Notes: a model not told the origin generated them from the letters alone. A stretch of DNA of 64,000 bases from Eledone cirrhosa (GCA_964016885.1 OZ024752.1:37200001-37264000); one strand, 5' to 3'; shown: positions 8,262 through 64,000, counted from the stretch's first letter. Numbers and translations are program-made.

Positions 8262-8389
8262 TTAACAACTTAATGTCTTCACAGCACGTTTCATACATTC
8301 TGAGTCACCATACTTCACTTCCCTCTTCTTAATTTTCACTCCATTTCTGCATGGACCAAAATCGCCCCATGGGCCAAAGAAGCAACGTT
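8262..8389 (-). CDS. PTN/MK-like gene last coding exon: divergent 4-Cys domain ([42 protein letters not shown])
   Basis: tttcAG acceptor, phase 1, TAA at 8264-8262. W-x2-F-x2-C pattern resembles TSR/PTN folds. Confidence 0.8.
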
Positions 8390-11300
8390 CTGAAACAATA
8401 AAATCCACAGGTTAGCATTTTCTTAGAAACTCATCTTAAATCTTGATGTAATAAAAATTAATATTTAAAAGAAATTACACTAAAAACTGTTATAAACACA
8501 AAAGTATATCCTTTAATATAGGATAAAGACCCCATAACTCTTTATGGAGTCGTAGAGGCACCATCATACGGTGTGTCTAGGGCACTTTTAAACCTGGCGG
8601 AGCCCAACCCTCTCCAGGTCTGAACACAGATGATTATTTCTATAGAGGAAGAATTGACCCCAGTACTGGACTGGTACTTTTTTTTAACAATCTCGAAAAG
8701 ATGAAAGGCAAAGTTGACCTCGGTGGGATTTGAACTGTGAGCAAGCAATGAGGTGGGACAAATACTGTAAAGCATTCTATTCAACATCTTAACGACTCTG
8801 CCAATTCACCACCTATCCTTCAATATAAAGTCTCCAAAAACCTTTTGCCATGCAATTATGCTGAGAAAAATAATGAATCTTTAATTTTAAATATACATAA
8901 ATATGTAATTCATGTATTTAATTTAATTAGGTGGTGAATTGGCAGAGTTGTTAGAATGTCGAATAAAATGCTTTGCAGTATTTGTTACGACTATCTGCTT
9001 TCTGAGTTCAAGTCCTACCGAGGTCAACTTTGCCTTTAATCCATTCAAGATAAAAAAAGTAGGAGTCTAGTACTGGGGTTGATTCTTCCTTTATATCTCC
9101 TTCTCATATTCTTTCTCTCACTTTCTATCCTTCTCTGGAATAAATCTGCTGTATTCAGATTTAAAAAATGCCCTAGAAACATTGCATATCAATATGGCTC
9201 CCTTACAACTTCCTCAGGAGTTACAGGTCCATACATATATTTAATTATTATTGTGGTATTAAGGATTAAACTTTTTTGTTTTTATTTATTTATTTTTCGC
9301 CCACTTATTCCTGAGAGGGTCGTGGGGGCAGAGACCTCAAACACTCCTTCCAGCAAGTCCTGTCAGCAGCAACTGTTTCCAACTAATCTGGCTGGATCCC
9401 CAAGCAAGACGAGCCAAGCTCATGGATGTTATTCAACCATCTTGATCGGGGTCTAATCCTGGGTCTCCTGTCGGTTGGTTTTGCCCATAAAATCTGTCCA
9501 GTAATTCTTTCCTGAGACATTCTAACCACATGCTCATTGTATCAGAGCTGTGATCTCTCAATTCAGAGGAGTAGCGGCTCTACCTGGAGTGACTCTTTGA
9601 TCTCTGAGCTACGCACTCTATTGGGCACGTTACTCCAAGAATCCTTTAGAGGAGCCCCTTTCTAAACACATGCCCATAGTATCAGAGCTGTGATCTCTCA
9701 ATTCGGAGACTCTCTGATCTCTGAGCTACACACTCTATCAAGTAACATTACTAAAAAAACCTTATAAATAATCAATAATAAAATTCAGAGAATGTTAATA
9801 AATAATATAAATAATCTCCCAAGTAGTTAATTACATTTGTACAACTAATTTGTTATAATAGAATGTTTTAGTCAGCATTTAACACAAAAGAAATAATCTC
9901 TATTGTTGGCATTTATTACAAAGTCAATTTATTTCATAAACTACCCAACAAAAATACTCAAAACATTACCCTCCACCCACCTCTGCAAAATTTCCTGCCA
10001 CACTTTACTACATATTTTCTAGACTGTTCACGACAGCAGAATAACTCAGTGGGAAGTATACAACTCACACTGTTCTTTAATAATGAGATATTCTTTCACT
10101 GCAGTTATCAATTATACAATATGAATAGCCTGAGGCTACATTGCACTAACATAATTATATCCTAATACTTATGACAAGCTTTTTAATTAAAATGTTAAAA
10201 TTGTAATGCATGCACCAAATAATGACACCAATGCCCGACAGGTTTCTTTGCTAGAAATATATATATGTAAATATATATGTAAATATATATGTAAATATAT
10301 ATGTAAATATATATGTAAATATATATTATATAGAAGTATGTTATATGTCATATACATACACACATATATATATATATATATATATATATATATATATATA
10401 CATTCACACAGACACACACACATATATATATATACACATTCACACACACACACACATATATATATACATTCACACACACACATATATATATACCATCATC
10501 ATCATCACCATTTAATGTCCACTTTCCCTGCCAGAAGGTTTTGATAGTTTTACAGGTTTACATTAACCAAGTCAATATTGAAGCGGGGCGGGGGGGGGGG
10601 GGGGGGGGCACTACATCTCATTCTATTGAGTGTAGAGGTGAGGTTGTCATGCCTGTTGACACAAACTGAAAGGTTCTCCCAACCCTTTTTATATATATGT
10701 ATATAGGAAAAGAGTCAGGACCCCGGCGGCTGAGCTCCAGCTGTTTCGACAGCTATTTGGGATCTAGCTGTCAAAACGGCCAGAGCTCAGCTGTCGGGGT
10801 CCTGACTCTTTTCCTATTACCCACTCTACAACCCTAAGTATCGAGTGCTCTGGTGTGTTATGGTCCACCTGGTTCCTTACCACACTCTCTTTGTTATATA
10901 TATATGTATAAACAAAAAGTGTAAGTCAAAAAGTTAAAATTAACTTTGTTTATTCCTATTCGGTGTAATATATATTTCGGTGATAACCATTATTCAACAG
11001 CTATGACCTCATCAGACAGCTAGAACTTGAACAGAAAAAACAGAAAAACATAATGGTGGAACAAAGTTTACTGTTATGTCGGTCCTTTGATAAGCCCTGT
11101 CCTGAAGTATGGTGTTGTTTTCTCAAAGAACTGACATATACATACCTTTCATGAGGACAGGCCTAAACACTGTAATGTGGTCATGAAGGTGACATGGTAA
11201 AAAGCACTCAGTCCACACTGTAAAGTAGTCATGTAGACATCACGACAAAAAGCAACCGTTACTCACTGTAAATGAGGTTGGCGTTGGGAAGGGTATCCAG

Positions 11301-63615: not shown

Positions 63616-64000
63616 GATGCTGAAATGAAAAAAAAAAAAAAATAAATAAAATAATTTATTAATTAAATTTAATATAATTACAAAAATATATAACATTAAC
63701 TCTACATGAGAAAAGTTAATGTAGTTTAACTCTTTAACATTTAAAATGGCCATATCCGTCCAGAATTCATGAAGCAATGTCTTTCAAAAAAACCTTTAGA
63801 ACTAAGCAATCCTTCAAAAACACCTGTAAACTTAAGCAATTCCTTTAAAAAAACCCATTAGACCTTTTCATTAGACCTTTTCAAAAATACCTTTAGACCC
63901 TTTAGCATTTAAACCAGCTGTATCCGGTCAGAATTCTCTCACCTTTTTCTGTTTAAACTGGCTGTAACCAGTTGCTCATACTGATGTTAAGGTATTGTTT

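What the first reader, a model, noticed from the sequence alone, without database searches (positions are those of the whole stretch)
8262..63619. Pleiotrophin/midkine homolog with an N-domain plus an array of six C-type domains
Seen: signal peptide, one 6-Cys domain, five CKY-type 4-Cys domains and one divergent 4-Cys domain, one domain per exon over ~55 kb. Established: vertebrate PTN/MDK have one N and one C domain, and Drosophila miple proteins resemble mainly the C domain. The C domain carries the main heparin/chondroitin-sulfate binding activity. Inference: this is a multivalent glycosaminoglycan-binding growth or neurite factor, and a vertebrate-like N-domain in a probable mollusc suggests the N+C architecture predates the protostome-deuterostome split. 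Half the exons are missing from the ORF track and could be missed by annotation.
Basis: partly seen in the sequence, partly recalled or inferred. Interest (0 to 1): 0.75.

Follow-up and report, generated by a model that had tools for sequence, protein, structure and literature searches.

The report
Long multi-module octopus pleiotrophin gene
An octopus gene encodes a long version of the vertebrate growth factors pleiotrophin and midkine, with seven small modules instead of two; the same long design occurs from priapulid worms to amphioxus, so it is likely the ancestral form, and it is predicted to grip sulfated sugar chains at several points at once.

Summary
Confirmed. Eight minus-strand exons (63619-8262, all introns phase 1) give a stop-free 378-aa ORF: signal peptide, PTN_MK_N domain, five PTN_MK_C domains and a divergent terminal module (T). 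Orthologues are annotated as 'uncharacterized' in three Octopus species, with isoforms skipping whole C-domain exons (3-5 C domains). A contig of this organism covers exon 3 exactly, without intron; a relative's contig shows the N-to-C splice. The array is not an octopus invention: N-(C)n-T occurs in a brachiopod, priapulid, hemichordates, echinoderms and amphioxus, T is last in 53 of 53 carriers, and 15 T domains group at 100/99. Pleiotrophin's heparin-contacting positions are mostly kept (4-6 of 6 per C domain). Best reading: a secreted multivalent glycosaminoglycan binder, apparently this genome's only family member, with valency set by exon skipping; vertebrate N-C and arthropod C-only forms are likely truncations. 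Binding, tissue and function are untested; 'growth or neurite factor' is analogy. The scan found a scallop member before (e1-9018470). Ten paper searches found no description of the long form.

The parts
63510..63619 (-). Exon 1 (first coding exon): ATG at 63615, hydrophobic signal-peptide-like N-terminus, 35 codons + 1 nt. It has a splice acceptor, so an untranslated exon lies upstream (not located).
   Evidence: Sequence; only hydrophobic windows of the protein are at residues 1-21; 24-28 of 35 residues identical in Octopus orthologues
59006..59200 (-). Exon 2: 6-Cys PTN/MK N-domain plus a 21-residue basic linker
   Evidence: PF05196 E=8.5e-5, 23.1 bits; PDB pleiotrophin N-domain 8voh E=3e-6, all six Cys aligned; spliced to exon 3 in a relative's contig
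44470..44610 (-). Exon 3: C domain 1; present in all 8 Octopus isoform records examined
   Evidence: PF01091 E=3.8e-10; contig of run X23 covers 44470-44612 with 0 differences and no flanking intron
36327..36461 (-). Exon 4: C domain 2; cassette exon in relatives; cephalopod duplicate of exon 5
   Evidence: PF01091 E=4.4e-13; absent from P0001, P0002, P0004, P0007; C2/C3 clade 99/97
31726..31860 (-). Exon 5: C domain 3; cassette exon in relatives; keeps all six basic GAG-cluster positions
   Evidence: PF01091 E=1.2e-12; absent from P0001, P0002, P0006, P0008
18737..18886 (-). Exon 6: C domain 4; present in all 8 Octopus isoform records examined
   Evidence: PF01091 E=2.8e-13
13231..13377 (-). 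Exon 7: C domain 5; skipped in one O. vulgaris model (P0003)
   Evidence: PF01091 E=1.3e-11
8262..8389 (-). Exon 8 coding part: terminal module T (4 Cys, RCFFGPW start), stop TAA at 8264-8262
   Evidence: Profile-profile match to the C domain, probability 96.8%, E=2.6e-10; last domain in 53 of 53 carriers; no PF01091 match on its own
7400..8261 (-). Probable 3' UTR (extent not determined); AATAAA at 8148, 8132, 7891, 7866 and further down
   Evidence: Run X23 holds 0.99 of the sampled words of 7400-8392; signals; the end of the transcript was not mapped

Best explanation
This is an eight-exon pleiotrophin/midkine-family gene encoding a signal peptide, one N-domain, five C-domains and a terminal T module, predicted to be secreted as a flexible string of small disulfide-held beta modules that likely binds heparan or chondroitin sulfate chains at several sites at once. 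Shown: exon structure, domain identities, conserved basic/Trp positions, exon-skipping gene models in three Octopus species, and the same N-(C)n-T plan across protostomes and invertebrate deuterostomes. Inferred: each C module binds a short sulfated stretch (as pleiotrophin's does), so 3-5 modules give avidity and can cluster or bridge proteoglycan receptors and matrix; skipping of phase-1 cassette exons sets the valency; T, which has lost most GAG positions yet is always last and strongly conserved, likely has another partner. Inferred history: N-(C)n-T is the ancestral bilaterian form, vertebrates kept N-C1, arthropods kept C repeats, and the number of C modules changes by lineage (C2/C3 is a cephalopod duplication). 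A role in development or repair is by analogy only.
For: Domain identity; best structural match of a C module is pleiotrophin's C-domain (8voi, Z 5.3, rmsd 1.8, 44 aligned). AlphaFold2 model of the O. vulgaris orthologue: mean pLDDT 82.6, domains about 88-96, pTM 0.39, N-C linker under 50, as expected of independent modules. PMC8773689 (passages) names cluster 1 K84/R86/K107, cluster 2 K68/K91/R92 and W74; the window's C1-C5 keep W74 in 5 of 5 and a basic residue at 5, 5, 6, 5 and 4 of the 6 positions, T at 3 of 6. pI 9.58, 84 K+R against 38 D+E. Drosophila Miple1/2 bind heparin although these residues are less conserved (PMC4224452, passages). Isoforms with 3, 4 or 5 C domains, with skipping of E4 and of E5 each modelled in three and three species. 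Splicing. Distribution. T clade 100/99 over 15 rows from 7 phyla. Amphioxus N-C1 aligns to a vertebrate pleiotrophin without the long linker, 43 of 95 identical. Only five PF01091 matches over cut-off in the genome, all in this gene.
Against: No binding, expression-site or functional data. The N-domain is borderline: 20.6 bits in P0001, not listed for P0003 or P0005 at E<=0.5, and the PF05196 genome search missed exon 2 itself, so a second diverged gene cannot be excluded. The N-domain keeps only 3 of 6 basic GAG positions (R35, R39, K49) and lacks the WKK linker (read by eye). Skipping isoforms are database gene models of other species; in this species only exon 3 was laid. The tree has 42 columns, its bootstrap had not settled, it has no outgroup, and T rows were chosen by a T profile, so their grouping is partly circular; vertebrate C with amphioxus C1 is only 93/79. 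Named chiton (NCC), leech (NC), horseshoe crab (CCC) and annelid Paralvinella proteins lack T, and bivalve and gastropod models lack N: loss, isoform or incomplete model cannot be told apart. VIA Z values are all under 6.
Confidence: 0.7

Rival explanations
1. It is mainly a cationic antimicrobial or immune effector: the basic modules would bind microbial surfaces, and GAG binding is secondary.
For: Net charge about +46. Three insect infection/injury transcriptome papers mention 'pleiotrophin-like' genes (search listing only). Antibacterial activity of midkine, pleiotrophin and Miple2 is recalled, from no call.
Against: Position-specific conservation of pleiotrophin's GAG clusters and W74 and a T module kept across phyla fit specific host partners; apparently single-copy, unlike rapidly expanding immune families.
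Confidence: 0.1
2. It is a precursor that would be cut at basic linkers into short N, C or N-C pieces, so the working unit resembles vertebrate pleiotrophin and is not multivalent.
For: The N-C linker is unstructured in the model (residues 108-122) and carries a KKKR run in the window and all 8 Octopus records. Smaller Miple2 bands were seen on blots (PMC4224452, passage).
Against: Most C-C linkers are only 2-7 residues, and paired basic sites are not at fixed places across domains or species. Basic linkers are also GAG contacts in pleiotrophin.
Confidence: 0.12
3. It is a structural matrix or adhesion protein, a TSR-like array that would cross-link GAG-rich matrix (cartilage, skin, mucus) without signalling.
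For: Top Foldseek match is the TSR array properdin, E=3.6e-6; T resembles spondin/TSP1 repeats; module number varies up to 10 in molluscs.
Against: No collagen, Ig, transmembrane or other matrix domain in the Pfam scans of 16 and 20 relatives; it is the only detected family member in the genome, so it would hold whatever signalling role the family has. This rival overlaps the best reading in mechanism and differs in outcome.
Confidence: 0.08

Closest known systems
Vertebrate pleiotrophin and midkine (Pfam PF05196 + PF01091; PDB 2n6f, 8voh, 8voi, 1mkn, 1mkc, 2lut, 2luu)
   Same: Signal peptide, 6-Cys N-domain then 4-Cys C-domain, matching Cys spacing, W18, W74 and most C-domain basic clusters; strongly basic. 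One domain per phase-1 exon also in human PTN/MDK (recalled, no call).
   Different: Five C domains instead of one, an extra terminal T module, a 21-residue N-C linker without the WKK motif, no long lysine-rich tail after the last domain, and valency-changing isoforms in relatives.
Drosophila Miple1/Miple2 and other arthropod members
   Same: Secreted, basic, heparin-binding PTN/MK homologues (PMC4224452, passages); tandem C-type domains (Tachypleus P0014 has three).
Invertebrate long forms in databases: Octopus LOC115210287 / LOC106868732 / CAI9721580-83, Lingula LOC106165955, Priapulus LOC106820788, Saccoglossus 'Pleiotrophin-like 150' (A0A0U2USR3), Asterias LOC117305338, Branchiostoma LOC144906487
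   Same: N-(C)n-T plan; Octopus orthologue about 87% identical (329 residues) exon for exon.
   Different: Number of C modules: 2 (amphioxus), 2-3 (ambulacrarians), 4 (Lingula, Priapulus), 5 (octopus), 7-10 in bivalve and gastropod models that lack N. Nearly all are named 'uncharacterized'.
Thrombospondin type-1 repeat arrays (properdin, thrombospondin-1, spondin; PF00090, PF19028)
   Same: Same fold class; T aligns to thrombospondin-1 TSRs (Z 3.4, rmsd 3.1, 40 aligned) and its nearest Atlas clusters are TSP1 (0.91, 143 of 256 features).
   Different: C modules score 40-50 bits on PTN_MK_C against under 19 on TSP1 models; only two disulfides per module.

Membership tests
PTN/MK family | PTN_MK_C domain over the Pfam cut-off | tested here: met
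   5 of 8 exons, 40.4-50.4 bits, cut-off 25.3
PTN/MK family | PTN_MK_N domain with six cysteines | tested here: met
   23.1 bits, cut-off 20.4; PDB 8voh E=3e-6; borderline in whole orthologues
PTN/MK family | N-terminal signal peptide, no membrane anchor | tested here: met
   Hydropathy over 1.5 only in windows starting at residues 1-11; no dedicated signal-peptide predictor was run
PTN/MK family | Basic GAG-binding clusters and W74 in the C domain | tested here: met
   4-6 of 6 basic positions and W74 in C1-C5
PTN/MK family | Three-stranded TSR-like beta fold per domain | tested here: met
   Model of the O. vulgaris orthologue; best match 8voi Z 5.3, rmsd 1.8; Foldseek 2n6f probability 1.00
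PTN/MK family | Heparin/chondroitin sulfate binding and growth or neurite activity | not testable with these tools
   Needs recombinant protein
Vertebrate-type PTN/MDK (two-domain cytokine) | Exactly one N and one C domain, about 13-18 kDa | tested here: not met
   Seven domains, mature mass about 39.6 kDa
Vertebrate-type PTN/MDK (two-domain cytokine) | Short N-C hinge with WKK | tested here: not met
   21-residue linker without it
Generic TSP1-repeat protein | TSP_1 or TSP1_spondin over the Pfam cut-off | tested here: not met
   0 of 8 exons; best 13.6 (cut-off 21.6) and 18.7 (cut-off 41)
PTN_MK_C, for the terminal module T | PF01091 match on its own | tested here: inconclusive
   No match at E<=5, but profile-profile probability 96.8% to the C alignment and 4.8% to the N alignment; relatives' T modules match TSP1 models weakly

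The most novel reading that the evidence does not exclude
The bilaterian ancestor of pleiotrophin and midkine was a long N-(C)n-T proteoglycan cross-linker whose valency is set by skipping phase-1 domain exons, a splice-controlled dial on glycan avidity that octopuses still use; the vertebrate two-domain cytokines and arthropod Miples are separate truncations, and the conserved terminal T module, which has no Pfam model, binds a partner that vertebrates no longer engage.
Probability: 0.4. Interest if true: 0.65.

Novelty: new variant of a known kind. Interest (0 to 1): 0.48.

Why it matters
Pleiotrophin and midkine are treated as small two-domain cytokines of chordates and arthropods (PMC4224452, 2014, passage). 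If the long form is ancestral, the two-domain plan is derived, and the open question of whether these proteins signal by clustering proteoglycans (raised in PMC8773689) becomes directly testable with natural isoforms of 3, 4 and 5 modules from one gene. It also names an 'uncharacterized' single gene as the candidate cephalopod counterpart of factors tied to neural growth and repair, and defines a conserved terminal module that Pfam lacks. The limits: the proteins already sit in databases, the scan met a scallop member earlier, and no function is shown.

Tried and rejected
Single-sequence AlphaFold2 of P0005 was poor (pLDDT 42.4) and was not used. Exon 8 against PDB sequences gave only designed helical repeats with no passing stretch: chance. 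PF05196 over the genome gave one sub-threshold match with a stop and missed exon 2: uninformative. No RNA holder was listed on record by the run search; X23 is taken as RNA only from its exon-only cover, and the 20 small-share runs count only where laid (X2, X11). Only the exon 3 stretch was laid, so the other six junctions are untested in this species; extra depth over the last 45 bases of exon 3 fits several downstream partners but shows none. The untranslated first exon was not found by tblastn with the extra N-terminus of P0005, and no further N, C or T exon was found in the window, 40 kb upstream or 20 kb downstream. The third homologue search returned only 9 proteins. No non-bilaterian member was identified: only 24 proteins could be looked up for names, 9 of them without a taxon, so the age beyond Bilateria is open. 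test_one_clade was not run. Exon 8 was first drawn from 8392, one codon too long, and corrected to 8389. The tree table's '1 change' for cephalopod C domains ignores unlabelled rows and was not used. Paper searches without a description of the long form: pleiotrophin+midkine+mollusc, +invertebrate/miple, pleiotrophin+octopus, PTN_MK_C, pleiotrophin+saccoglossus (43, 0 papers), +amphioxus/evolution, pleiotrophin-like, midkine with mollusc/annelid words (63, none of 25 listed held 'midkine'), six gene/protein ids (73, 0 papers); sought GAG residues. Subscription journals and supplements were not searched; single-cell supplements could hold expression data under other ids. No complex was predicted, as no specific partner is claimed.

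Full report
Observation. Final coordinates: 63619-63510, 59200-59006, 44610-44470, 36461-36327, 31860-31726, 18886-18737, 13377-13231, 8389-8262. All have AG/GT ends and all seven introns are phase 1, so exons 2-7 are multiples of three and can be skipped in frame; the spliced frame is 378 codons without a stop. Exon 2 passes the PTN_MK_N cut-off (23.1 against 20.4 bits) and matches the pleiotrophin N-domain in the PDB with all six cysteines. Exons 3-7 pass PTN_MK_C by a wide margin and score far lower on TSP1 models; their profile finds only pleiotrophin and midkine chains in the PDB, 5 of 177,635 sequences at E<=10. Exon 8 matches no family above cut-off. My own profiles score 60-91 bits on these exons and at most 11.3 on 20 shuffles.

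The gene is real and spliced. Exon 2 as query returned four Octopus proteins; their clusters hold eight records from O. sinensis, O. vulgaris and O. bimaculoides, named 'uncharacterized' or '58-like'. The longest, CAI9721580, holds all eight exons and is about 87% identical, which places the window in an octopus-type cephalopod. In run X23 one 565-base contig covers 44470-44612 with no difference, stops at the donor and continues 422 bases unlike the intron, while run X21 reads through both flanks; in run X11 (another organism, RNA by guess) the loose end beyond the acceptor matches the 3' end of exon 2 at 23 of the first 25 letters, read by eye. Two Logan proteins from contigs of 1.1-1.3 kb (P0012, P0015) also carry N, C and T in one frame. 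The other six junctions were not tested in this species.

Isoforms. Of the eight Octopus records, one has all five C modules, two lack exon 4, two lack exon 5, two lack both, and one lacks exon 7. Exons 1, 2, 3, 6 and 8 are in all eight. These are database gene models. Exons 4 and 5 are 66% identical as protein and form a cephalopod-only group at 99/97: a duplication whose two copies became the main cassettes.

The array is old. A profile search of 1.84 billion representatives gave 453 matches at E<=0.001, of which the best 150 were listed. With N, C and T profiles (threshold 14 bits), 60 of 150 have three or more C-type domains, 16 five or more, 54 an N-domain, 35 a T module, 15 both N and T, and 22 the plain N-C plan. 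I looked up 20 of these, chosen for having N or T; 11 had a taxon: Lingula NCCCCT, Priapulus NCCCCT, Saccoglossus NCCCT ('Pleiotrophin-like 150'), Amphiura NNNCCCT, Asterias NCCCT, Diadema NCCT, Lytechinus NCCC (a cluster mate NCCCT), Branchiostoma NCCT, Helobdella NC, Liolophura NCC; nine had none. Pfam confirms PTN_MK_N over cut-off in 16 of these 20. Glandiceps (NNCCCT), Ptychodera (NCCT) and Lineus (CCCCCT) came. Mercenaria, Mya and Gigantopelta have 7-10 C-type modules plus T without N; Tachypleus has CCC.

The terminal module. T is the last domain in 53 of 53 carriers among 172 proteins, and N is first in 69 of 69. T is related to C (probability 96.8%) and not detectably to N (4.8%); it keeps four cysteines, G, W, R and G at 94-100% of 50 rows. 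In a 96-domain tree, 15 T rows from seven phyla fall on one side of a branch at 100/99; domains under 34 residues, among them two sea-urchin T modules, were left out, the alignment has 42 columns, and T rows were picked by a T profile. T leans towards TSP1: weak Pfam matches in relatives, Z 3.4 to thrombospondin-1, TSP1 clusters in the Atlas. The vertebrate-type C domains group with amphioxus C1 at 93/79 only, but amphioxus N-C1 aligns to a pleiotrophin over 95 residues at 45% with a one-residue gap, which fits loss of everything after C1 in vertebrates. There is no outgroup, so direction rests on distribution.

How it likely works. The model of the O. vulgaris orthologue, folded with 70 sequences, has seven confident beta modules and low global confidence (pLDDT 82.6, pTM 0.39), as for beads on a string; best matches are properdin and pleiotrophin by Foldseek and the pleiotrophin C-domain by VIA. 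PMC8773689 (passages) places heparin contacts at K84/R86/K107, K68/K91/R92 and W74, reports that the domains bind short chains independently and long chains co-operatively, and asks whether pleiotrophin cross-links proteoglycans. Mapped through P0113, nearly identical to PDB 2n6f, C1-C5 keep W74 and 5, 5, 6, 5, 4 of six basic positions, T keeps 3, and N keeps 3 of 6. Fly Miples bind heparin and are dispensable for viability (PMC4224452, passages), while miple2 knock-down impaired wing regeneration (bioRxiv 10.1101/2024.04.17.589898, passages). I infer a secreted multivalent GAG binder that clusters proteoglycans, with valency set by splicing (0.7). Searches of the genome found only this locus, with the stated limits of sensitivity. 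Rivals: cationic antimicrobial (0.1), cleaved precursor (0.12), purely structural matrix protein (0.08).

Novelty. It is a member of the PTN/MK family by every feature I could test, and not of the two-domain vertebrate type. Ten paper searches gave no description of the long form; PMC4224452 and PMC4287103 (passages) describe the family from chordates and arthropods, and PMC10131483 (one passage) only lists the Pfam names. All other papers were seen as search listings. Subscription journals and supplements were not covered; an older report of a midkine-like transcript in a limpet is recalled and was not found. Verdict: new variant of a known kind, interest 0.48.

Noticed in passing
window 35754-36330 (minus strand, directly after exon 4): A 69-base minisatellite (8.4 copies) repeats the exon 4 donor motif nine times at 69-base spacing. 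Reading on from the first donor meets a stop within 13 codons, so the extra donors would not give protein; they may affect inclusion of this cassette exon.
   Followed up: partly
window about 55400-58082, minus strand, intron 2: A broken non-LTR retrotransposon in the same orientation as the gene: endonuclease PF03372 E=1.8e-11 and reverse transcriptase PF00078 E=3.2e-17 in separate open frames.
   Followed up: partly
P0025 (Amphiura), P0169 (Glandiceps): These ambulacrarian members repeat the N-domain too (three and two copies), so both domain types can be multiplied.
   Followed up: partly
P0010 (Gigantopelta) residues 32-255: Five N-terminal C-type repeats lack the conserved tryptophan and form their own group at 97/99, in place of an N-domain.
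   Followed up: partly
window 18737-18731: The exon 6 donor is a weak GTGTGT site, yet exon 6 is present with this end in all eight Octopus records.
   Followed up: no
window 21766-22993, 24662-25796, 29048-30423, 14175-15028: Long intronic tandem arrays (periods 117, 22, 9-129, 56) account for the longest 'ORFs' of the window; they are not genes.
   Followed up: partly
P0157 (1440 aa), P0159 (816 aa), P0122 (514 aa): Long unnamed proteins matched the family profile with few or no clear N/C/T domains; they may be the prokaryotic TSR/midkine-like repeat proteins of earlier scan notes.
   Followed up: no
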